Part shown: positions 5,171 through 43,555 of the stretch, piece by piece | How positions within the stretch are numbered: position 1 is the stretch's first letter | How the letters are laid out: each line of letters opens with the position of its first letter | From: Candidatus Kaiserbacteria bacterium CG10_big_fil_rev_8_21_14_0_10_59_10 | Lineage (GTDB): Bacteria > Patescibacteriota > Minisyncoccia > Phycocordibacterales > UBA2100 | Assembly: GCA_002773285.1 (NCBI GenBank) | Contig: PFBM01000021.1 | Coordinates: 14,312 to 78,311 of the forward strand | Direction of reading: 5' to 3' | Length of the DNA stretch: 64,000 nt | Notes under the pieces: model-generated | The model's database searches: none | Told to the model about the DNA's origin: nothing | The model's input: the letters and a program-made list of their open reading frames with translations, nothing else | Position numbers and translations under genes: made by a program

Positions 5171-6025
5171 TTACCGAACGCGGACAAGACCGAGCTCTTC
5201 GGTGATAATACCCTTGATTTCCATCGTGCTGAGGAGCACGTTTGCCTCCGAGATAGGCATCGCGAGCGCGGAAATAAGTTCATCCCGCGTGCGCGGCTCG
5301 GAGAGCGCGGCGAGGACTCGGCGCTCTTCATTGCTAAGATCGCTATCGTCCCGCGCAGCAGCCGTGCGTTCAATGCCGAGTGCGCGCAGCACGTCCTCCG
5401 GCTCGGTCACGGGTGTCGCGCCGAGCTTGAGGAATTGATGCGTGCCGCGGCTTTCTGCGCTAAAGATGGAGCCGGGTACTACGAGAAGGTCGCGGTTATA
5501 TTCCGTCGCGAGCCGCGCAGTTATCAAGGAGCCGGAGCGCTCTTTTGCCTCAATGACGAGGGTTGCCCGGCACATGCCAGCCATAATGCGGTTGCGCTGC
5601 GGGAACGTGTAGTCCGCCGCCCTTTGGCTCGGCTCGAATTCCGAGAGGAGCGCGCCGCCCGCTTTAAGTATGTCCCGCGCGAGCGGAACGTTCGCCTTCG
5701 GGTATAGGACATCCCAGTCGAGTCCGGAGCCGGGAACGGCGACCGTAGGCAACCCAGCCGCGATAGCGGCTTTGTGGGCACACGCGTCCACGCCGTAGGC
5801 GAGTCCGCTGACAATTACCACGGGGGCGCCGCGCATTCCCTCTATAAGATGAGCGCAGGCCTGCCTGCCGTATTGCGTCATGGTGCGAGAGCCGACGACC
5901 GCGAGCCACGCGTTCTCGAAGCCGGGCAAAGAGCCGCGTACATATAACTTCGCCGGCATGTCCGGTATCTCACGCAGCGGTGGCGGGAAGGCCGCTGGGG
6001 AGAGCTTTGTCAGCTCAGCGTTCAT
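5171..6025 (-). CDS. dprA: DNA processing protein DprA/Smf. Start at Met29 of the track ORF; the GTG at 6109 is an alternative.
   Basis: Rossmann-like DprA core VVIVSGLAYGVDACAHKAAIAAGLPTVAVPGSGLD and a C-terminal winged-helix-like tail. Confidence 0.8.
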   Translation of the reverse strand: MNAELTKLSPAAFPPPLREIPDMPAKLYVRGSLPGFENAWLAVVGSRTMTQYGRQACAHLIEGMRGAPVVIVSGLAYGVDACAHKAAIAAGLPTVAVPGSGLDWDVLYPKANVPLARDILKAGGALLSEFEPSQRAADYTFPQRNRIMAGMCRATLVIEAKERSGSLITARLATEYNRDLLVVPGSIFSAESRGTHQFLKLGATPVTEPEDVLRALGIERTAAARDDSDLSNEERRVLAALSEPRTRDELISALAMPISEANVLLSTMEIKGIITEELGLVRVR

Positions 6026-6126
6026 AATGGTATTATCATAGCAAGCCGGTGGCTTGTAGCCGGTAGCCGATTGCACTGAAGCGTATTCATGCACGGCTGC
6101 GAGCTGCACGCTGCACGCTGCACGCT

Positions 6127-7404
6127 ATGTTGGACATAAAGTTTATTCGAGAGAACAAGGACATCGTCGCGGCAGGCGCGCGAAAAAAGCATATCGCGGT
6201 CGACTTAAACAAGCTGCTTGAGCTGGACGACGAGCGCCGCGCTCTGCAGCAATCCGTCGACGCGAAACGGGCGGAGCAGAATGCGGCATCTGAGAAAATT
6301 GCCGCCGCGGGAGAGAGCGAGCGAGCCGATTTGATCGCCACGGTGCAGCAACTGAAGGACGCACTTAAAGCGGAGGAAGAGAAGCTGACAGCCGTGATGA
6401 AGGCCTGGCGCGAGCTGATGGTGCAGGTGCCGAACGTCCCGGATGTGTCGGTACCGGACGGTGACTCGGACGCGGACAACAAGGAGATCCGCACGTGGGG
6501 CGAGAAGACCTCATTTCCGTTCACGCCGAAGAGCCATTTTGAACTGATGCAGCTGCATGACATGGCGGATTTCGAGCGCGGCGCGAAAGTCGCCGGTTTC
6601 CGCGGGTACTTTCTAAAAAATGACGGCGCACGGCTCGCATGGGCGCTCGAGCGCTTCGTACAGGAGCGTTTTATGTCCCGCGAGGGCTTCACGCCCATGG
6701 TCGTTCCTTCTCTCGTGCGCAAGGAGCCCTTCATCGGGACCGGCTACTTGCCGCAAAGCGAGGACGACTTGTACAGGACGCAGGACGGTGAATATCTTGC
6801 CGGCACCGCGGAGGTCGCGGGTATGGGGTACTACATGGACGAGGTACTTGATAAGAAAGAGCTGCCCATCAAGTTTTTCGCATTCTCGCCCTGCTTTCGC
6901 CGCGAGGCGGGGAGCCACGGGAAAGACACCAAGGGCCTGTTCCGCATTCACGAGTTCGTGAAGTACGAACAGATTGTCCTGTGCGAGGCGAGCCATGAAG
7001 AATCGGTCAGGCATCATGAAGAGATCACTGCCAATTCCGAGGCCCTGCTGCAGGAGCTCGGCTTGCCGTATCGCGTCGTGCTTAATTGCGGCGGCGATAT
7101 CGGGCTGGGACAGGTCAAAAAGTACGACATCGAAGCATGGATGCCGAGCGAGGAGCGCTATCGCGAGACGCATTCATCATCCTACTTCCATGACTTCCAG
7201 ACGAGGCGCCTGAACATACGCTACCGCGATGAAGACGGTACGCTGCGGTTCGCGCATTCGCTGAACAACACCGCGCTTGCGATGCCGCGCATACTCTGCC
7301 ACATAGTAGAAAACGGACAGCGCGAGGACGGCAGCATTTCCGTTCCCGAGGCGCTGCGGGGGTACATGGGCCGCGATGTCATCCAGAATACTAAAACTCC
7401 GTAA
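6127..7404 (+). CDS. serS: Seryl-tRNA synthetase
   Basis: N-terminal coiled-coil (MLDIKFIRENKD...). Class II aaRS motifs (FRREAGSHGKDTKGLFRIHEF; tRNA-binding arm). Confidence 0.9.
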   Translation: MLDIKFIRENKDIVAAGARKKHIAVDLNKLLELDDERRALQQSVDAKRAEQNAASEKIAAAGESERADLIATVQQLKDALKAEEEKLTAVMKAWRELMVQVPNVPDVSVPDGDSDADNKEIRTWGEKTSFPFTPKSHFELMQLHDMADFERGAKVAGFRGYFLKNDGARLAWALERFVQERFMSREGFTPMVVPSLVRKEPFIGTGYLPQSEDDLYRTQDGEYLAGTAEVAGMGYYMDEVLDKKELPIKFFAFSPCFRREAGSHGKDTKGLFRIHEFVKYEQIVLCEASHEESVRHHEEITANSEALLQELGLPYRVVLNCGGDIGLGQVKKYDIEAWMPSEERYRETHSSSYFHDFQTRRLNIRYRDEDGTLRFAHSLNNTALAMPRILCHIVENGQREDGSISVPEALRGYMGRDVIQNTKTP

Positions 7405-13213: not shown

Positions 13214-13299
13214 CGGCGGGTGCGCATGGTGCTTAATCGGCACTACAGAAAGCGGCACGTATAGTGTCACATATACTCACCCGAATGGTCGGCCCATGT

Positions 13300-13632
13300 A
13301 TGAAAATAGAAATTTATTTCAATGATAAGGAACTGGAGCAGCGGGCGTCCTACGACCCGGAGGCGAGGGAGGAGCTAAGGAAGGCCGTCGCGGCAATTGC
13401 CATCTTGCACGCGCGGGATCTCGCTGAGGCGCGCGCACTGGACGAAAAATACGTGCCGCAGCTCGCAACGGCGGGGATGGGCGTGTTCGACCAGGCGTAC
13501 AATGTATACATGAAATATGGAGGCGTATTTGAAGAAACGACCGCGTTCGCGCCGTACTTCGGGTGGTGGGCGCGGCAGGCGATGATCGAGTATATCGGTT
13601 CGATACGCGCGCCAATCACGCGCGTAGAGTAA
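13300..13632 (+). CDS. Sigma-70 family N-terminal fragment (regions 1.2-2.2 only; possible pseudogene or remnant). Alternative upstream starts at 13264 and 13285.
   Basis: VFDQAYNVYMKYGGVFEETTAFAPYFGWWARQAMIEYIGSIRAPITRVE parallels the sigma-70 region 2.1/2.2 consensus ([26 protein letters not shown]...IRIPVHMVE). The ORF stops where region 2.3 would begin. Confidence 0.5.
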   Translation: MKIEIYFNDKELEQRASYDPEAREELRKAVAAIAILHARDLAEARALDEKYVPQLATAGMGVFDQAYNVYMKYGGVFEETTAFAPYFGWWARQAMIEYIGSIRAPITRVE

Positions 13633-13648: not shown

Positions 13649-14419
13649 CTAGTGTGCGAGGGTAGCGTAGACCACCAAGCGATGGTCATAGGTGCCGAGG
13701 CTGCGAACGTACGACCCCGCGCAGGTTATTACGTGCAGGTGTTTTCCGCCGTCGTTCCTGTTGAAGAGCATATCGGACGTCAGATCCGACAGACGGTGTG
13801 TCTTGGTATGCGTCACTACATACCGAAGCCGGCTGCCGTCTTCAGCTGTCACATATATCTCGTCGCCGGCCTTGACGCGGTGCAGCTCGGAAAACGCGGC
13901 ATATACGTGCGCTGCGAGCACCGCACTGCCCGTGTTGCCGGGCAGGACCCCGTACTTATACCAACCGACGTTATCGGTGCGCCCATCGGGCACATCCATG
14001 TCTCCCTTGTCGTTAATGCCGACCTGCTGGATGGGTGAATTGAGGCCGATGGCCGGCATCTGGACACGTACGGGATATGTGGAAGAGGTAGCGGATAGGG
14101 GTGACGGGCTTGAAGGAACCGGTGTCGCACTCACACCCTCCTCTACTTTTCCTTCCGGAACTGCTGCTCGTGCGACAGATAACGCGACCTCGAGCGTGCC
14201 GTTGGGTGGCGACGAGGCCCCATCCAAAGGCGGCTCGTGTGACGGAATCTCAGCGATGAATGGGGGCAGGTCTAGGGCAATGCCGGAGCGAGCATCATTG
14301 GTAGGAAGCGTTGCGCTGCCGCTACCGGGGTCAAGCAGCGCTGCGTGCGCGCTTGCACCTAGAACGGCGACGCATCCGCATGCAGCTAACAATAGTACTG
14401 TACGCATGAACCGATGCAT
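13649..14419 (-). CDS. Sortase-family transpeptidase (class E/F-like), N-terminal signal/TM
   Basis: Catalytic His in LAAHVYAAF, TLxTC-type Cys motif HVITCAGSY, conserved Arg in RLVVYA. Confidence 0.8.
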   Translation of the reverse strand: MHRFMRTVLLLAACGCVAVLGASAHAALLDPGSGSATLPTNDARSGIALDLPPFIAEIPSHEPPLDGASSPPNGTLEVALSVARAAVPEGKVEEGVSATPVPSSPSPLSATSSTYPVRVQMPAIGLNSPIQQVGINDKGDMDVPDGRTDNVGWYKYGVLPGNTGSAVLAAHVYAAFSELHRVKAGDEIYVTAEDGSRLRYVVTHTKTHRLSDLTSDMLFNRNDGGKHLHVITCAGSYVRSLGTYDHRLVVYATLAH

Positions 14420-14593
14420 TCTATGGGCACGCCATGTTCATGTCTATATCATTCATGAATCTGAAGAGCTCATGAACCTATGCGGCTACAAAAGCAGCAA
14501 AAAGGGTTTGCACTACGCGTGCGAACTCATCGATTGTCCACACCGCCTCCGGACACCTGCAGCGCTGTCGCGCACGCCGAAGCGCGCTATACT

Positions 14594-14884
14594 ATGCTGG
14601 TGGAAGATTTCTTGAAAATGGATATCTTTTTCGTAGTGACGACACTCGTCGTTGCGGTCTTAGGGCTTTTTGCCGCGATCGCCCTTTACTACGTAGTGCG
14701 CATTCTTCGCAATGTCGAGCATATATCACACAATGTCGCCGAGGAGAGTGATAACCTCCGCGCCGATATTGCACAGCTGCGCGAGCGCGTGCGCGCCGAG
14801 GGTTTTCGATTGAAGCACGTCGCCGCATTCGTTCGCTCGCTGTTCGGACGAGCGGCGCGCGTGGCAAAAAAGAAGCGCAAGTAA
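14594..14884 (+). CDS. Small single-TM protein with a C-terminal coiled-coil and basic tail (hypothetical)
   Basis: MLVEDFLKMDIFFVVTTLVVAVLGLFAAIALYYVV TM then a charged helix. TATACT -10-like box just upstream. Confidence 0.45.
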   Translation: MLVEDFLKMDIFFVVTTLVVAVLGLFAAIALYYVVRILRNVEHISHNVAEESDNLRADIAQLRERVRAEGFRLKHVAAFVRSLFGRAARVAKKKRK

Positions 14885-14958: not shown

Positions 14959-15378
14959 ATGGTTAAGAAGCGTACGCAAAAAGCGATGGGGATAGGAGCG
15001 GGTCTCGCAGCGGCAGGCGCCGCGGCCGCCGCAGGGTACTATTTTTACGTGAGCAAGGACGCGGCGAAGCATCGTCGCGTTGCCGCGAAGTGGGCGAGTG
15101 GGTTCAAGAAAGAAGTCGTCAAGCAGGCGAAGGCGGTTAAGAACGTGAATAAGACCGCCGTGCTTGCGGCGGTGGATAAGGCGACAGAAATGTATACCAG
15201 GGCACGCAAAACCGATAGAGCGGATATTATGCGCGCTGCCGAGGAGCTGAAGAAAAACTGGCAGCGCGTCGCGCAAGAAGTGCAGGCAGCTGCCGAGAAA
15301 GGGGCTCGTTCCGCTCGCAAAACGGCAAAGAAGACGGCAAAGCGAACTACACGCAAGAAAACCGCAAAGCGCCGGTAA
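14959..15378 (+). CDS. Lys/Ala-rich basic protein with N-terminal hydrophobic segment and KKTAK-type C-terminal repeats (histone H1/AlgP-like low complexity)
   Basis: GIGAGLAAAGAAAAAGYYFY hydrophobic stretch; C-terminus RKTAKKTAKRTTRKKTAKRR. Confidence 0.5.
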   Translation: MVKKRTQKAMGIGAGLAAAGAAAAAGYYFYVSKDAAKHRRVAAKWASGFKKEVVKQAKAVKNVNKTAVLAAVDKATEMYTRARKTDRADIMRAAEELKKNWQRVAQEVQAAAEKGARSARKTAKKTAKRTTRKKTAKRR

Positions 15379-15482: not shown

Positions 15483-15680
15483 TCAGTTGTCCGGCGTCGG
15501 CGAGACCGGTGGAACTGTTATGTTCGGTGCCTGCGTTTCCGGCAGGTTTACATCTATGTTCGTGCGCTCTTCCTGCTGCCCCCATAGTGGCCCTCGCAGG
15601 AACCACACGAGGGCTCCGACGACGATGATAATAAGCAACACTATGAGCACTGTGTTGACGCCTGAGTTGTCTCTGTCCAT
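15483..15680 (-). CDS. Small membrane protein (65 aa, single TM, Pro/Thr-rich tail)
   Basis: VLIVLLIIIVVGALVWFL TM helix; short ORF only. Confidence 0.35.
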   Translation of the reverse strand: MDRDNSGVNTVLIVLLIIIVVGALVWFLRGPLWGQQEERTNIDVNLPETQAPNITVPPVSPTPDN

Positions 15681-15902
15681 ATAAGAACCGCGTATCTATG
15701 ATAAATAAAAGCGGATCTGCCCCGTGCGGTGCGCGGAACCCCGCATAGTGATGGTTGCACTACAAACTGAAGACGCCATGAAGTGCGGGCGTGCGCCACA
15801 GCTGCATATATCCGCTCAATATACCTTGCACAACGCCTGCGCCTCGTTCATATTTTGCACATTAACGCGCACGCACAATGCGGTGCGTTATGCATACTTT
15901 CT

Positions 15903-16277
15903 ATGATAGAAAGCGAGCAGCGGGGTAGACGTACCATTGACCTGGATGAGATCCGGGCATGGGCGGAGGAGCGCGGGGGAGTCCCCGCGATAGCCGAGCG
16001 CGCCAAAGATGCAGAAGGCGGAGACCTGCTACGCATCGTCTTTGATGACACGGAGAAACACGTGCGGGAAGTTCCCTGGGAAGATTTCTTCGCCGTGTTC
16101 GAGGCAAATAAGCTTGTGTTTGTATACGACGCTCCCGTGGCAGGAGAGCCGTTGAGCTTGGAGCACGAATTTGCTGAGCGCACGACTGCCGACATTGAGA
16201 GTGCGGAACCACTGGAAGAGTACGGCGAAGACGATTGGCTTGATGAGGGAGAAGAAGAGCTCGAGGAGCTGCTTTGA
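15903..16277 (+). CDS. Acidic hypothetical protein (about 124 aa, Glu/Asp-rich C-terminus)
   Basis: Internal Met of ORF-track ORF 15783..16277; coding-like composition; no family assigned. Confidence 0.45.
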   Translation: MIESEQRGRRTIDLDEIRAWAEERGGVPAIAERAKDAEGGDLLRIVFDDTEKHVREVPWEDFFAVFEANKLVFVYDAPVAGEPLSLEHEFAERTTADIESAEPLEEYGEDDWLDEGEEELEELL

Positions 16278-16397
16278 GGGATTCACCCCTCTTTCACCGC
16301 GGGGCCGGCATACTTATCGTCAGGTCGATGTTACGAGCCAAACAAGATTTGAGCTAGTGACATGATTACAAACTCGTCACACGAACGTTAACCGCAG

Positions 16398-16655
16398 ATG
16401 ATCCGTATGACCATGCTCAAAAGAATTATAAGCGTGTCTGCTCCTCTTGCAGCCCTTGCAGCCGCGGGTATTGCGAATGCGCAAACAGCGACACAGACCG
16501 CGACCACAGCAACGCCTACACCCGGCATTCCGGAGACCGGCGTAGGCGGGGATATGGTGATGAATCTTGTCCTATTGGGCGCAGCAGCGCTCATAGCAGG
16601 CGCAGGCGCCATGTACCTGTATGTGACGCGCTCGCGCGGGGCAGACAGGGTGTAG
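16398..16655 (+). CDS. Mini sortase substrate: signal peptide + Thr/Ala/Pro-rich 15-aa stalk + IPETG sorting motif + TM + RSRG tail
   Basis: MIRMTMLKRIISVSAPLAALAAAGIANA signal; QTATQTATTATPTPG stalk; IPETG; GVGGDMVMNLVLLGAAALIAGAGAMYLYV hydrophobic; TRSRGADRV positive tail. Sits 32 nt upstream of a sortase gene. Confidence 0.6.
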   Translation: MIRMTMLKRIISVSAPLAALAAAGIANAQTATQTATTATPTPGIPETGVGGDMVMNLVLLGAAALIAGAGAMYLYVTRSRGADRV

Positions 16656-16686
16656 CCATGATCGTTAGCCCGGCGTCTGCGCGCGT

Positions 16687-17427
16687 ATGAGGATACGTAC
16701 GCACAGCAGAGAAGTGGCAGCGGCAGTTCTTGCCGCTGCCATTCTCGTAGGAGGCACGGCGGCGGTCCGCACGCTGCTGGTTCTGCCTGCCTCGGCGCTT
16801 CTCGTGCCGTACCCAACGGAAGCTCATGAGAAGAACGACGCGTTCGGGCTCATACGGTTTGTTACAGAGACAGCAACGCCGTTTAGCGGTGCGCAAGGCG
16901 CGTCGCGAGCGGAGAGACCGTTCCGGGCGCGGCCGGCTGCCTCAGAGAGGAATGGCGCATCGGAGGCGATGGGAACGGCGCAGCCCATGCGGCTCCAAAT
17001 ACCGCATATACGAGTCGACGCGCCGGTCGTGAGGGTCGGCATCAACGGGGTTGGCAATATGGCAACGCCATCGTCGTTCAGCGAGGTCGGCTGGTATCGG
17101 CATGGCCCGCGACCCGGCGAGCCGGGAAGCGCCGTCCTTGCCGGGCATGTAGACAATGCACTCGGGTTTCCCGGCGTCTTTAAGAGATTGGGTGAGTTGC
17201 GGGAAGGAGATGTGCTGTATATCACTGTGGCTGATGGCACTGCTCTGCGATTTGTTGTCGCCTCTGTGGAAACGCATCCATATAATGACGCACCTACGAA
17301 CGAGATTTTTTCGACGGGCGGCGCGCCGCGTGTCACGCTTATCACCTGTGCCGGCTCCTGGCTGCGCAGTGCCGGCACATACGATACGCGGCTCGTCGTC
17401 ACGGCATACTTGGCGGATGATAAGTAA
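16687..17427 (+). CDS. Sortase-family transpeptidase (paralog of 13649..14419)
   Basis: LAGHVDNA (His), TLITCAGSW (Cys), RLVVTA (Arg). N-terminal TM anchor. Confidence 0.8.
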   Translation: MRIRTHSREVAAAVLAAAILVGGTAAVRTLLVLPASALLVPYPTEAHEKNDAFGLIRFVTETATPFSGAQGASRAERPFRARPAASERNGASEAMGTAQPMRLQIPHIRVDAPVVRVGINGVGNMATPSSFSEVGWYRHGPRPGEPGSAVLAGHVDNALGFPGVFKRLGELREGDVLYITVADGTALRFVVASVETHPYNDAPTNEIFSTGGAPRVTLITCAGSWLRSAGTYDTRLVVTAYLADDK

Positions 17428-18092
17428 TGACGCATGCTGCATACATGACGATACGGTTTGTTGATAGAGCGGAGGCAGGGAAGGCACTGGCTGAAGCGCT
17501 TCTGGGTTATCGCAGCGATGCACCTGTCATCTACGCATTGCCCCGCGGCGGCGTAGCTGTTGGGTATGAGATCGCTCGGGCACTACGGGCGCCGCTTGAG
17601 ATCATTCTCACGCGGAAGATAGGGCACCCCCTCAACGCAGAATATGCAATATGCGCGATAGCGGAAGGTGGGGAGCCGCTCTGCAACGAATTGGAGCGCG
17701 CGGAGCTTGACGACGCGTGGCTTGCGGCGGCGTGCAAACGGGAGCGTGCGACACTCGCGCACAGAGCGGCACTGTACCGCGGCGATGGGGCGCGCATCTC
17801 AGCACGCGGTCGAGTCGCGATACTGGTGGACGACGGCATTGCGACGGGGCTTACGATGCGCTCGGCCATTGCGGTGTTGAGAGGTGAGGAACCCAAGAAG
17901 CTTATCGTTGCGGCGCCCGTGTGCCCCGCCGATGTCATTGCAGAGCTGCATGAGGCGGGAGCGGACGAAACAGTCATTTTGGAGAAAGGAAAGCCATATC
18001 TCGGTGCGGTCGGCGCATACTATCGGGAGTTCCCCCAGCTCACCGACAACGAGGTCATCGCCGCTCTCCAGGGGTCGAGGAAAACGGAATAA
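17427..18092 (+). CDS. Phosphoribosyltransferase-family protein (type I PRTase fold). ATG overlaps the sortase stop (ATGA).
   Basis: PRPP-binding loop ILVDDGIATGLTMRSAIAVL and N-terminal hood region. Confidence 0.7.
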   Translation: MTHAAYMTIRFVDRAEAGKALAEALLGYRSDAPVIYALPRGGVAVGYEIARALRAPLEIILTRKIGHPLNAEYAICAIAEGGEPLCNELERAELDDAWLAAACKRERATLAHRAALYRGDGARISARGRVAILVDDGIATGLTMRSAIAVLRGEEPKKLIVAAPVCPADVIAELHEAGADETVILEKGKPYLGAVGAYYREFPQLTDNEVIAALQGSRKTE

Positions 18093-42379: not shown

Positions 42380-43555
42380 ATGCATTCATCGCTGTACACG
42401 CATCGCACACTCGTGCGCGCCGCCTTCGCGCTTGCGCACGTGTTCGTGTGGGTGCTGTCCTTCGAATTACTTTCTGCCGCGCTCGCATCGGTTGGAGCCG
42501 CGCTCGCGGCAACGGCGCTCTTGCACGCAACCTCACAAACCGTTTCGCTCTACACAACGCCCTTCGCGGCGCGGTTTCTCCACCGCGCGGGGGCGCGGCG
42601 CAGCATGTCACTTGCGGCGCTCGCTGCGGTGGCGGCGTTCGCCATGTTTGCGCATATTTTCAGCGAGCGAGAGGGAGCGCTTCCGCTTGCCGCTTTATGC
42701 AGTGCGGTGGTGCTCCTTGGACTGTACCGCGCGCTCTACTGGGTGCCGTATCGCGTCATGGACGACCGTACAGCGGAGCAGGCATACCGCTCACACTACC
42801 TGCGAGAGCTCGGCATCGCGTCGCTGCCGCTCGCCGGTGCGCTCATACTGATATACAGCCCACTGGGTGCCGCCGCTCTTTTCTTGTGCGCCGGCCTGCT
42901 GCTTCTCGGTTCTATGATTTTTCTCGCTCGCGCACCTACCGCGTACGAACGATATGATTGGACGTTCGCCGAGAGCATGCGGCGGCTCTTTTCTGCGTCT
43001 GAGCGCCCGCTGCTTTCATCTTCTTTTCTGCAGGGCGTGCAAGGCGCGGCACTCCTGTTCGCGTGGCCGCTTGCGGTATTTACCGTCGTCGACGGCTCGT
43101 TTCTCGTGCTCGGCGCTGTCATGTCGCTCTCTCTCGGTGCGACCATTCTGCTGCGCGCACATATCAGTCGCGCCGTGCGTGATACGCCTCTTGGCGATTC
43201 CATACACGTATCCGCCGCACTCGGTGCCTCGGGCTGGCTATTGCGGCTCACGGCCGCATCGCCCATCGCGCTTATCATCGTCGACACGTATTCCAATGCG
43301 GGCAATCCGCTTAGGCGTATCGGCGTTGACTGCGCAGCATTTGAGCAAGCGGCGGACCTCGGCCACTTTGTCGACGAATTTTCCGCACTGAAGGACATGG
43401 GGCAGATGCTCGGGCGTATCACTCTGGCACTTATTCTTGCCTTAGCTGCGGTCTATCTTGGCGCGTTCATCTCACTCGCGCTTGCGATACTTATTGCGGC
43501 GTGCGCTGCAGGCGTGTCGCTCTACGCTTTCCAACCCGGGCGAATTCACGCATAG
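42380..43555 (+). CDS. Polytopic integral membrane protein (391 aa, about 10 TM; transporter-like), hypothetical
   Basis: Continuous hydrophobic helices separated by short Arg-containing loops. Preferred over the Arg-rich alternative frame 42229..42957. Confidence 0.55.
   Translation: MHSSLYTHRTLVRAAFALAHVFVWVLSFELLSAALASVGAALAATALLHATSQTVSLYTTPFAARFLHRAGARRSMSLAALAAVAAFAMFAHIFSEREGALPLAALCSAVVLLGLYRALYWVPYRVMDDRTAEQAYRSHYLRELGIASLPLAGALILIYSPLGAAALFLCAGLLLLGSMIFLARAPTAYERYDWTFAESMRRLFSASERPLLSSSFLQGVQGAALLFAWPLAVFTVVDGSFLVLGAVMSLSLGATILLRAHISRAVRDTPLGDSIHVSAALGASGWLLRLTAASPIALIIVDTYSNAGNPLRRIGVDCAAFEQAADLGHFVDEFSALKDMGQMLGRITLALILALAAVYLGAFISLALAILIAACAAGVSLYAFQPGRIHA

What the first reader, a model, noticed from the sequence alone, without database searches (positions are those of the whole stretch)
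16398..17427. Minimal sortase substrate (IPETG) encoded 32 nt upstream of a sortase
ORF 16398..16655 (85 aa) has all the parts of a sortase substrate and almost nothing else. It has a signal peptide ending ANA, a 15-residue Thr/Ala/Pro-rich stalk (QTATQTATTATPTPG), an IPETG pentapeptide, a hydrophobic helix and an RSRG positive tail. After signal-peptide and sortase processing, the wall-linked product would be a glycosylation-prone peptide of about 19 residues. It lies immediately upstream of a sortase (TLITCAGSW). A second sortase paralog lies 2 kb away in divergent orientation. A surface-displayed mini-peptide, rather than an adhesin or pilin, as the dedicated product of a sortase locus is unusual. 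It could be a cap, a primer or nucleator for pilus-like polymerisation, or a decoy.
Basis: seen in the sequence. Interest (0 to 1): 0.75.

Follow-up and report, generated by a model that had tools for sequence, protein, structure and literature searches.

The report
Passenger-less sortase substrate in CPR bacteria
This is a real 85-residue gene in a Candidatus Kaiserbacteria genome that has a secretion signal and a sortase cell-wall anchoring signal but only about 19 threonine-rich residues between them, and it belongs to a large, unnamed family that almost always sits beside a class F sortase in these ultra-small bacteria.

Summary
ORF 16398..16655 encodes a signal peptide (…ANA|Q), a 19-residue Thr/Ala/Pro spacer, IPETG, a TM helix and an RSRG tail. 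A class F-type sortase starts 31 nt downstream. A second sortase paralog lies 2 kb upstream on the other strand.

It is not chance: none of 200 simulated 64-kb sequences gave such an ORF.

It is not a one-off. An exhaustive profile search finds 643 cluster representatives (226 at E≤1e-10), and the best 150 are 60-138 aa. They share an invariant A|Q start, a Lys-free spacer of 10-123 residues (35% Thr), xPNTG-AGG(D/N), a TM helix and a basic tail.

The link to sortase holds in both directions. About 39 of 48 CPR sortase loci carry a substrate directly upstream, 17 of them minimal. All 8 mini-proteins looked up have an adjacent sortase, among otherwise unrelated genes. Three natural substrate-TM-sortase fusions exist.

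Most likely the sortase cleaves at T|G and attaches a short, unstructured peptide to peptidoglycan as a wall decoration. That peptide is possibly pyroGlu-capped and O-glycosylated. A pilus primer or nucleator role is disfavoured, because there is no Lys and no fold.

The family is undescribed and unnamed. I rate it a new variant of a known kind, of moderate interest.

The parts
16398..16655 (+). Mini sortase-substrate gene (85 aa including signal peptide; stop at 16653-16655)
   Evidence: ORF and translation. The only ORF of its kind in the window, and 0 of 200 simulations gave one. Member of a family of 643 representatives.
16398..16481 (+). Signal peptide, residues 1-28, predicted cleavage ANA|Q
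   Evidence: Basic n-region (K8, R9), hydrophobic h-region and an AxA site. A|Q is invariant in alignments A3 and A4 and present in 218 of 227 family members. AF2 helix at residues 3-22. SignalP was not available.
16482..16538 (+). Predicted mature, wall-linked peptide QTATQTATTATPTPGIPET (19 residues, no Lys/Arg/Cys/aromatic residues)
   Evidence: Sequence. Coil with block-mean pLDDT 54-62 in the AF2 model. Family spacer composition is T 35%, G 14%, S 11%, P 8%, K 0.1%.
16527..16541 (+). Sortase pentapeptide IPETG. The family consensus is xPNTG followed by AGG(D/N); here it is followed by VGGD.
   Evidence: P, T (nearly) and G are invariant. The X position is N in 192 of 218 members and E in 2 of 218.
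16554..16625 (+). Hydrophobic membrane-spanning segment of the sorting signal (residues 53-76)
   Evidence: Hydropathy scan. AF2 helix 53-84 with block-mean pLDDT 92-94 over residues 61-80.
16626..16652 (+). Positively charged cytoplasmic tail TRSRGADRV
   Evidence: A K/R tail is conserved across the family.
16687..17427 (+). Class F-type sortase (246 aa): N-terminal TM anchor, linker and catalytic domain with H154, C221 (TLITC) and R235
   Evidence: Pfam Sortase 80 bits. NCBIfam class_F_sortase is the best hit at 141 bits, below the 166 cutoff. NCBI names it 'class F sortase'. H154 and C221 are invariant in A1 and A2; R235 is invariant in A2 and A5 but not in A1.
13649..14419 (-). Second class F-type sortase paralog (256 aa), divergent, 2 kb upstream. 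H, C and R are retained. It has an 11-residue deletion just after the catalytic His.
   Evidence: Pfam Sortase 74.7 bits, class_F 110.6 bits. The same deletion occurs in the second sortase of L084, which has the same two-sortase layout. A second sortase also flanks the mini-gene in L086.

Best explanation
The 85-aa protein is a bona fide, dedicated substrate of the class F-type sortase encoded 31 nt downstream. Its functional product is the short peptide itself, not a displayed domain.

Proposed steps:
1. Sec export, with signal peptidase I cleaving after ANA and exposing an N-terminal Gln. This is inferred from the sequence and from family invariance.
2. The C-terminal TM helix and RSRG tail hold the precursor in the membrane. 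This is inferred from the canonical sorting-signal anatomy.
3. The sortase Cys221 attacks the Thr-Gly bond of IPETG. The acyl-enzyme is then resolved by the free amine of a peptidoglycan precursor stem peptide. This is inferred from established sortase chemistry. The genome encodes MurB, Ddl and MltG, so it makes a wall.
4. The result is a 19-residue, Lys-free, Thr/Ala/Pro peptide (QTATQTATTATPTPGIPET) covalently bound to the wall. It is intrinsically unstructured. Its N-terminal Gln probably cyclises to pyroglutamate, and its Thr residues may be O-glycosylated. Both modifications are speculative.

Functionally it would act as a ribosomally encoded wall decoration or hydrophilic 'brush'. It would change surface chemistry and occupy stem-peptide amines that would otherwise be available for cross-linking.

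The gene pair is an evolutionarily mobile two-gene module. The passenger length is labile, and the minimal form is a stable, recurrent state.
For: - Anatomy is complete and beyond chance.
- The adjacent enzyme is a sortase with an intact His/Cys/Arg triad.
- From the sortase side, about 39 of 48 CPR loci have an SP+xPxTG+TM+tail ORF directly upstream on the same strand. 17 of these are minimal, with passengers of about 55 residues or fewer.
- From the mini-protein side, 8 of 8 look-ups have an adjacent sortase, while all other neighbours differ.
- Three in-frame substrate-TM-sortase fusions exist: L018, P0099 and P0115.
- The family is large and its best-matching members are uniformly short: 98 clusters, then 643 representatives with 226 at E≤1e-10, and the top 150 are 60-138 aa.
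- Features are strictly conserved: A|Q, xPNTG-AGG(D/N), and a Lys-free, 35% Thr spacer.
- There is no folded passenger.
- Peptidoglycan genes lie in the same window.
- In a rough tree, sortases linked to mini substrates are interspersed with those linked to large substrates. This means repeated passenger gain or loss with retention of the anchor module.
- Precedents: a domain-less disordered sortase substrate with a phenotype (SspA, PMC13293333); N-terminal Gln to pyroGlu stabilising exported proteins (PMC5837995, PMC10653852); and O-glycosylation of extracytoplasmic Ser/Thr-rich disordered regions in streptococci (PMC12041528).
Against: - There is no biochemical evidence of any kind. Cleavage, the acceptor nucleophile, pyroGlu formation and glycosylation are all inferred.
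- The mini-protein gets no hit from the Pfam or NCBIfam LPXTG-anchor models.
- The sortase scores below NCBIfam's class F cutoff.
- IPETG is an atypical variant within the family (2 of 218).
- No glycosyltransferase is consistently linked.
- I could not count other xPxTG proteins in the rest of the genome, so 'dedicated' versus 'housekeeping sortase with one adjacent substrate' is unresolved.
- A 19-residue peptide may not reach beyond the wall, so its benefit is unclear.
- The role of the second sortase paralog is unexplained.
Confidence: 0.6

Rival explanations
1. The peptide is joined by the sortase(s) to an acceptor other than peptidoglycan. One option is head-to-tail joining through the conserved N-terminal Gln amine, giving a sortase-made poly-(Thr-rich) polymer. 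Another is attachment to a different protein or envelope molecule. One paralog would polymerise and the other would anchor, as in class C plus housekeeping pilus systems.
For: Two sortase paralogs lie near one substrate in the window, L084 and L086. The paralog has a distinct loop deletion next to the catalytic His. The invariant N-terminal Gln-Thr is unexplained by signal peptidase needs alone. Some family members carry internal tandem TPG-xPNTG modules.
Against: Most loci have only one sortase. There is no Lys, pilin motif or Ig-like fold. N-terminal Gln tends to cyclise, which removes the amine. No known sortase uses an N-terminal Gln nucleophile (my own knowledge, not tested).
Confidence: 0.12
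2. The functional product is the membrane fragment left after cleavage (GVGGD…TM…RSRGADRV), or the uncleaved micro-protein. It would act as a small membrane regulator or chaperone of the sortase, or of envelope-stress signalling. The Thr-rich peptide would be a disposable by-product.
For: The most conserved and most confidently modelled part is the post-cleavage segment AGG(D/N)xxxN plus the TM helix. In the fusions this TM helix serves as the sortase's own anchor. One locus (L083) is flanked by a histidine kinase and a response regulator.
Against: Conservation after TG is equally expected for sortase recognition. Kinase/regulator adjacency was seen in 1 of 8 loci only. The signal peptide, A|Q and a Thr-rich spacer are also strictly maintained, which would not be needed for a membrane-only role.
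Confidence: 0.1
3. It is a decayed remnant of a larger surface protein that lost its passenger domain. It is tolerated but functionless: still processed, with no selected role.
For: The same locus position holds substrates with real domains in relatives, such as ice-binding-like, Cys-repeat and Tyr/Gly-rich passengers. Mini and large forms are interspersed on the sortase tree.
Against: Hundreds of divergent clusters keep an intact start, signal peptide, A|Q, motif, TM and tail. Minimal forms persist across sortase divergence of 40-55% identity. CPR genomes are streamlined, which argues against keeping dead genes. Composition is constrained (Lys-free, 35% Thr), not random.
Confidence: 0.1
4. 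It is a chance ORF or shadow frame in GC-rich DNA, not a gene.
For: Many overlapping spurious ORFs exist in this 59% GC window, including a 142-aa antisense ORF at 16388..16816.
Against: 0 of 200 simulations produced such an ORF. There is a conserved protein family with conserved synteny.
Confidence: 0.01

Closest known systems
Canonical LPXTG cell-wall sorting signal proteins and sortase transpeptidation (Gram-positive surface proteins)
   Same: N-terminal Sec signal peptide. Tripartite C-terminal signal: xPxTG pentapeptide, hydrophobic helix and basic tail. A membrane-anchored Cys transpeptidase with a His/Cys/Arg triad is encoded alongside.
   Different: There is no passenger domain at all, only 19 residues (10-50 in most relatives). 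Position 1 is I/V/L/T/A rather than L. There is an extended conserved signature, TPG-xPNTG-AGG(D/N). It is not detected by the Pfam PF00746 or NCBIfam anchor models. The host is a CPR/Patescibacteria organism, not Bacillota or Actinomycetota.
Class F sortases (NCBIfam NF033748; Cutibacterium acnes SrtF is the only characterised member; physiological roles otherwise unknown, PMC13251363, PMC8225981)
   Same: Best family match for both window sortases, and so named by NCBI. In Bacillota and Chloroflexi relatives the enzyme is likewise encoded right after one substrate, a DUF4397 protein with MPxTG-MGG.
   Different: Scores are below the curated cutoff (141 and 111 versus 166). The CPR enzymes form their own clade. 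The cognate substrate is a mini-peptide rather than a domain protein. No class F structure is close enough to be found by sequence.
SspA of Actinoplanes missouriensis (191-aa sortase-anchored, fully disordered spore-surface protein; PMC13293333)
   Same: A domain-less, intrinsically disordered sortase substrate. Its loss gives a phenotype and is suggested to influence peptidoglycan cross-bridge frequency. This is a precedent for the idea that the peptide itself is the function.
   Different: SspA's mature part is about 115 residues and is anchored by a class E sortase. There is no tight gene pairing with its sortase, and the composition and lineage differ.
Sortase-assembled pilins (class C sortase substrates)
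   Same: Small secreted proteins with an LPXTG-type signal, encoded beside dedicated sortases, sometimes with two sortases per locus.
   Different: Pilins need a Lys nucleophile (pilin motif) and Ig-like CnaA/CnaB folds. The mini-peptide has no Lys and no fold.
Bacteroidetes 'Q-rule' (N-terminal Gln after signal peptidase I cleavage, converted to pyroglutamate; PMC5837995, PMC10653852)
   Same: Gln follows the predicted signal-peptide cleavage site in 218 of 227 family members by the A|Q-plus-motif filter, and several of the other nine also show it.
   Different: Here the rule is seen for one protein family, not proteome-wide. The other secreted proteins in the window do not follow it (sequence inspection). 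No glutaminyl cyclase was looked for.

Membership tests
Sortase substrate (cell-wall sorting signal protein) | N-terminal Sec signal peptide | tested here: met
   Basic n-region, hydrophobic h-region and an ANA|Q site. A|Q is invariant in the family. AF2 helix at residues 3-22. Heuristic only, because SignalP was not available.
Sortase substrate (cell-wall sorting signal protein) | Pentapeptide of LPXTG type, 20-45 residues from the C-terminus | tested here: met
   IPETG at residues 44-48, 37 residues from the end. P, T and G are conserved in the family.
Sortase substrate (cell-wall sorting signal protein) | Hydrophobic helix followed by a positively charged tail | tested here: met
   Residues 53-76 are hydrophobic (best 15-residue window has mean Kyte-Doolittle hydropathy 2.35). 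The tail is TRSRGADRV.
Sortase substrate (cell-wall sorting signal protein) | Match to curated anchor models (Pfam PF00746 Gram_pos_anchor / NCBIfam LPXTG anchor) | tested here: not met
   No hit at E≤0.01. Only 2 of the 98 relatives carry a precomputed PF00746 hit.
Sortase substrate (cell-wall sorting signal protein) | Cleavage between T and G, and amide linkage to peptidoglycan | not testable with these tools
   Requires enzymology and mass spectrometry.
Class F sortase (NF033748) | Score at or above the curated family cutoff | tested here: inconclusive
   Best-scoring family by a wide margin (141.3 bits; the next, class E, is 29.7) but below the 166 cutoff. The paralog scores 110.6. NCBI annotation nevertheless names it class F.
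Class F sortase (NF033748) | Sortase fold with a catalytic His-Cys-Arg triad and an N-terminal membrane anchor | tested here: met
   Pfam Sortase 80 bits, above the 26.6 cutoff. H154, C221 and R235 are present. The profile matches solved sortases of classes A-E. The N-terminal hydrophobic segment is visible.
Sortase-dependent pilin | Lys nucleophile in a pilin motif, and Ig-like (CnaA/CnaB) domains | tested here: not met
   No Lys in the mature peptide. Only 5 of 218 family passengers contain any Lys. No fold is predicted.
PEP-CTERM / exosortase substrate | PEP motif + TM + Arg-rich tail, with an exosortase gene in the genome | tested here: not met
   The motif is xP(N/E)TG, not PEP. The adjacent enzyme is a sortase, not an exosortase.
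Q-rule proteins (N-terminal pyroGlu) | Gln at +1 of the signal peptidase I site, plus glutaminyl cyclase activity | tested here: inconclusive
   Gln at +1 is met. The presence of a cyclase and actual cyclisation were not tested.

The most novel reading that the evidence does not exclude
CPR bacteria use a sortase to install a ribosomally encoded, passenger-less Thr-rich peptide on peptidoglycan as a wall polymer in its own right. It would be a genetically templated scaffold, probably glycosylated, that plays the role of secondary wall polymers such as teichoic acids and tunes cross-linking and surface chemistry. In genomes with two class F paralogs, the peptide might be joined head-to-tail into longer chains.
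Probability: 0.15. Interest if true: 0.8.

Novelty: new variant of a known kind. Interest (0 to 1): 0.52.

Why it matters
Three reasons.

1. Class F sortases are widespread, yet the literature I could search says their physiological roles remain unknown (PMC13251363). A conserved enzyme-substrate gene pair with a clear extended motif, TPG-xPNTG-AGG(D/N), gives a directly testable substrate and specificity hypothesis.

2. The CPR/Patescibacteria cell envelope is poorly understood. More than half of CPR genomes carry a sortase family (PMC6744442), but no substrates have been characterised. This family may be one of the most common things these sortases attach.

3. A sortase substrate whose entire product is a 10-50-residue Lys-free peptide challenges the usual view of sortases as displayers of folded adhesins, enzymes or pilins. 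It suggests that wall modification by peptides is a function in itself.

Practically, the motif and the natural substrate-sortase fusions could also be useful for sortase-ligation engineering.

Tried and rejected
- A single-sequence homology search with the 85-aa protein returned only itself. The word-index method fails on a short, low-complexity query. I solved this by harvesting neighbours of sortase homologues and searching with alignments.
- Pfam and NCBIfam gave no hits for the mini-protein or for neighbours 14480..14884, 14959..15378, 15783..16277 and 13264..13632.
- The search for related loci with the 30-sequence sortase alignment failed because no conserved stretch was found. It worked with 6 close sequences.
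- phmmer of the sortase against PDB sequences gave no hit at 1e-3. The profile hits only distant class A-E sortases.
- The promoter/terminator scan of 15600..17600 found no sigma-70-like promoter and no terminator between the mini-gene and the sortase. This is compatible with co-transcription but is not evidence for it.
- I looked for a linked glycosyltransferase or GT-C/PMT-like membrane protein near the locus. There is none: the only 9-TM protein, 42380..43555, has no Pfam hit and lies 26 kb away.
- Literature searches (class F sortase; sortase + Patescibacteria / candidate phyla radiation / Saccharibacteria + LPXTG; DUF4397 + sortase) found no description of these mini-substrates. The Di Girolamo 2019 SrtF paper is not held. 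The new CPR Pam pilus paper is unrelated: donor-strand exchange, not sortase.
- Rejected readings: a PEP-CTERM/exosortase signal (wrong motif, wrong enzyme), a pilin (no Lys, no fold), and a chance ORF.
Full report
**1. What is in the sequence**

The window comes from Candidatus Kaiserbacteria bacterium CG10_big_fil_rev_8_21_14_0_10_59_10, a member of the Candidate Phyla Radiation (CPR, Patescibacteria). The source names for the identical proteins say so. GC content is about 59%.

ORF 16398..16655 (+) encodes 85 residues: MIRMTMLKRIISVSAPLAALAAAGIANA|QTATQTATTATPTPG-IPETG-VGGDMVMNLVLLGAAALIAGAGAMYLYV-TRSRGADRV. It has:
- a basic n-region, a hydrophobic h-region and an A-N-A signal-peptidase site;
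- a 15-residue Thr/Ala/Pro spacer;
- IPETG, encoded at 16527..16541;
- a 24-residue hydrophobic segment and a basic tail.

Thirty-one nucleotides downstream, 16687..17427 encodes a 246-aa membrane-anchored sortase containing TLITCAGSW. A second sortase (13649..14419, minus strand) lies 1978 nt upstream in divergent orientation. The only correction is the gap: 31 nt, not 32.

**2. Is it more than chance?**

A six-frame scan of the whole window finds exactly one ORF with a start codon, a signal-peptide-like N-terminus, xPxTG, a hydrophobic stretch and a K/R tail. None of 200 first-order Markov simulations of 64 kb produced one. The C-terminal sorting signal alone arose 0.065 times per simulated window. 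AlphaFold2, run with a 40-sequence family alignment, models two helices (residues 3-22 and 53-84) joined by coil with block-mean pLDDT 54-62. There is no folded passenger.

**3. The enzymes**

- The downstream protein matches Pfam Sortase (80 bits, cutoff 26.6). Its best NCBIfam match is class_F_sortase at 141 bits. The next family scores 30 bits, but the curated cutoff is 166. NCBI annotates it as a class F sortase.
- The catalytic His154 and Cys221 are invariant in both sortase alignments. Arg235 is conserved among the close relatives (alignments A2 and A5) but varies in the broader alignment (see section 10).
- No solved structure is close. A single-sequence search of the PDB finds nothing at 1e-3. 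A profile finds only class A-E sortases at E≥4e-11.
- The upstream paralog also keeps the His/Cys/Arg triad. It has an 11-residue deletion immediately after the catalytic His, and the second sortase of locus L084 shares that deletion.
- The window also encodes MurB, D-Ala-D-Ala ligase and MltG. The organism therefore makes the peptidoglycan a sortase needs as an acceptor.

**4.

*From the sortase side.* A degenerate-pattern scan of one genome per species returned 80 loci encoding relatives of the sortase: about 48 CPR, the rest Bacillota and Chloroflexota-type. I scanned each locus for ORFs carrying a sorting signal.
- In about 39 of the 48 CPR loci, an ORF with signal peptide + xPxTG + TM + basic tail ends directly upstream of the sortase gene on the same strand.
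- In 17 of these the predicted mature passenger is about 55 residues or fewer. Examples are L023 (10), L006 (15) and L022 (about 15-18).
- The others carry passengers of 78 to about 360 residues: Cys-repeat or Tyr/Gly-rich segments with no Pfam match, and one ice-binding-like domain.
- In Bacillota and Chloroflexota the equivalent upstream gene is a DUF4397 protein, or a roughly 450-aa protein, with MPxTG-MGG.

*From the mini-protein side.* I looked up the genomic places of eight family members found by protein search. All eight have an adjacent sortase. Seven have it immediately downstream on the same strand, and one has it convergent and abutting. The remaining neighbours are unrelated from locus to locus: FtsZ, ABC transporters, ribonucleotide reductase, ClpP and others. 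The pair therefore travels as a two-gene module.

*Fusions.* Three independent in-frame fusions exist: signal peptide, spacer, xPNTG, then a single TM helix running straight into a sortase catalytic domain (L018; P0099 and P0115). These are 'Rosetta-stone' support for a direct enzyme-substrate relationship.

**5. The family**

A 17-sequence alignment of mini-proteins from the loci retrieved 98 clusters at E≤1e-3 from 5.8 billion proteins. Nearly all are 59-137 aa (ten are 138-188 aa). Nearly all are unnamed or called 'hypothetical'; two carry other automatic labels. Only six have any precomputed Pfam domain.

An exhaustive HMMER search of 1.84 billion 50%-identity representatives, using a 40-sequence profile, found 643 proteins at E≤1e-3 and 226 at E≤1e-10. 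The best 150 are all 60-138 aa and most match the profile over nearly its full length.

Statistics on the 227 retrieved sequences:
- 218 fit the strict pattern. Most of the remaining nine look conforming by eye but fail the filter, for example through over-long or truncated called starts.
- Total length has a median of 92 aa.
- The mature passenger is 10-123 residues, median 31. It is 25 or fewer in 66 members and 50 or fewer in 172.
- Passenger composition is T 35%, G 14%, S 11%, P 8%, N 6%, K 0.1%, with no Cys or Trp. Only 5 of 218 passengers contain any Lys.
- The residue after the predicted cleavage site is Gln (usually Gln-Thr) in all 218.
- The motif is xPNTG in 192 of 218, with x = V, L, T, A or I. 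It is usually preceded by TPG and followed by AGG(D/N).

The window's IPETG is thus a rare variant: E occupies that position in 2 of 218. The closest relative found, P0169 (59% identity), has VPNTG.

A rough neighbour-joining tree of the catalytic domains puts the CPR enzymes in one clade. Sortases linked to mini substrates are interspersed with those linked to larger substrates. Passenger content has therefore changed repeatedly while the signal peptide, A|Q, Thr-rich linker and anchor were kept.

**6. Most likely mechanism**

*Shown:* the gene is real, conserved and tightly coupled to a sortase gene, and its product has no folded passenger.

*Inferred from established sortase biochemistry:*
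- Sec export and signal peptidase cleavage after ANA.
- Membrane retention by the TM helix and basic tail.
- Attack of Cys221 on the Thr-Gly bond of IPETG.
- Resolution of the thioester by the amine of a peptidoglycan precursor.
- A wall-linked 19-residue peptide, QTATQTATTATPTPGIPET, as the outcome.

*Speculative:* the invariant N-terminal Gln cyclises to pyroglutamate and the Thr residues are O-glycosylated.
- For pyroGlu, the precedent is the Bacteroidetes Q-rule, where it stabilises exported proteins (PMC5837995, PMC10653852).
- For glycosylation, the precedent is Ser/Thr-rich extracytoplasmic disordered regions in streptococci (PMC12041528). In my own recollection, untested here, Thr-rich linkers next to archaeal PGF-CTERM anchors are another.

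I found no linked glycosyltransferase in the window. Only one of eight looked-up loci has a GT2 gene adjacent.

A peptide with no Lys, and possibly no free N-terminal amine, cannot act as a sortase nucleophile.

The function I consider most likely is a peptide decoration of the wall that alters surface chemistry and consumes stem-peptide amines. The nearest experimental precedent is SspA of Actinoplanes missouriensis. SspA is a 191-aa, wholly disordered sortase substrate. Its loss weakens sporangia, and the authors suggest it influences cross-bridge frequency (PMC13293333).

**7. Rivals**

- (a) Attachment to another acceptor, or head-to-tail polymerisation involving the second paralog. The two-sortase layout in three loci and the unexplained Gln invariance keep this alive. 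Most loci have one sortase, and no precedent exists for a Gln nucleophile.
- (b) The membrane fragment is the functional part. It is the best-conserved segment, and it serves as the sortase's anchor in the fusions. That conservation is equally explained by sortase recognition.
- (c) A functionless remnant. This is hard to reconcile with hundreds of intact, compositionally constrained members in streamlined genomes.
- (d) A chance ORF. This is excluded.

**8. Comparison with what is known**

The protein works like a classical LPXTG substrate. It meets the anatomical criteria, but the curated anchor models do not recognise it. The enzyme is class F-like, below the family cutoff.

In the literature I could search:
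- Class F sortases are described as having unknown physiological roles. A quadruple class F deletion in A. missouriensis had no phenotype (PMC13251363). Only the C. acnes enzyme has been characterised (PMC8225981).
- A sortase family is noted to occur in more than half of CPR genomes, without substrates being discussed (PMC6744442).
- No paper describes these mini-substrates or the class F-substrate gene pairing.

That absence is limited to the held open-access library.

**9. Verdict**

I classify the finding as a new variant of a known kind: a large, unnamed CPR family of passenger-less, Thr-rich, Lys-free sortase substrates, genetically coupled to class F-type sortases.

Interest is moderate (0.52). 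The chemistry is expected. However, the idea that the peptide itself is the product, the size of the family, and the handle it gives on two open questions (class F sortase function and the CPR envelope) make it worth a targeted experiment.

**10. Other things seen**

- Substrate ORFs in L062, L076 and L079 end a few residues after xPNTG with no TM helix.
- Some family members contain internal tandem TPG-xPNTG modules.
- Two small membrane-protein genes (14480..14884 and 14959..15378) and an acidic cytoplasmic protein (about 15903..16277) are conserved upstream of the pair in several related loci.
- Many actinobacterial class F sequences have Asn where the CPR and Bacillota enzymes have the presumed catalytic Arg.

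Noticed in passing
L018:3524-4447 (+); also proteins P0099 (413 aa) and P0115 (348 aa): Natural in-frame fusions. A signal peptide (or passenger), a Thr-rich spacer and xPNTG-(A/E)GG are followed by one TM helix that runs directly into a class F sortase catalytic domain. The substrate's TM helix doubles as the enzyme's membrane anchor.
   Followed up: partly
L062:3080-3781, L076:3101-3778, L079:3502-3831: Substrate ORFs directly upstream of CPR sortases end 4-9 residues after the motif (LPNTGGGASAQ*, LPNTGGGYGM*, FPNTGRAHKH*). There is no TM helix or basic tail, and no room for one before the sortase ORF. This may be a membrane-anchor-less sorting signal, or assembly frameshifts.
   Followed up: no
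window 13649..14419 (-); L084:1388-2011 (-); L086:3140-3811 (+): A second class F-type sortase lies within 3 kb of the mini-substrate in three loci. The window and L084 copies share an 11-residue deletion right after the catalytic His, so they look like an orthologous sub-type. The window copy's N-terminus (LLLAACGC) resembles a lipoprotein lipobox. No substrate gene is adjacent to it.
   Followed up: partly
window 14480..14884 (+), 14959..15378 (+), ~15903..16277 (+): Two small membrane or coiled-coil proteins and an acidic cytoplasmic protein, none with a Pfam or NCBIfam hit, are conserved upstream of the mini-substrate/sortase pair. The first two occur in 6-7 related CPR loci (L001, L006, L009, L023, L061, L081). 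The third occurs in L081, L082 and L084. It is unclear whether this is functional linkage or just phylogenetic synteny.
   Followed up: partly
L026, L037, L043, L044, L049, L050, L052, L053, L055, L063, L065, L066, L068-L071, L073-L075, L077 (substrate ORFs end ~40-570 nt before the sortase match): In Bacillota and Chloroflexota, class F sortase genes are preceded by a single substrate gene. It is either a ~270-aa DUF4397 protein or a ~450-aa protein without a Pfam domain. The motif is MPxTG, followed by MGG in Bacillota or SDP in Chloroflexota. I found no paper on this pairing.
   Followed up: partly
proteins P0143, P0161, P0170, P0188, P0189, P0190, P0215: Some family members carry one or two extra internal copies of the TPG-xPNTG module inside the Thr-rich passenger, not followed by a TM helix. 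These could be duplication relics or additional sortase sites.
   Followed up: no
L088:252-1016 (GT2 glycosyltransferase); L083:4014-4910 and 5964-6635 (histidine kinase, response regulator): Single instances of a family-2 glycosyltransferase immediately upstream of a mini-substrate/sortase pair, and of a two-component system flanking another pair. Each was seen in 1 of 8 looked-up loci.
   Followed up: no
alignment A1, column of window sortase R235: The presumed catalytic Arg (YDxRLVV) is kept in the CPR, Bacillota and Thermomicrobium-type sequences of the alignment. It is Asn (YxDNLVV) in most of the other, mainly actinobacterial or unnamed, class F sequences.
   Followed up: no
L038:1847-3109: In one Parcubacteria locus, the substrate upstream of the class F-type sortase carries an ice-binding-like domain (PF11999, 202 bits), then a Gly/Ser-rich linker and APNTG.
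   Followed up: no
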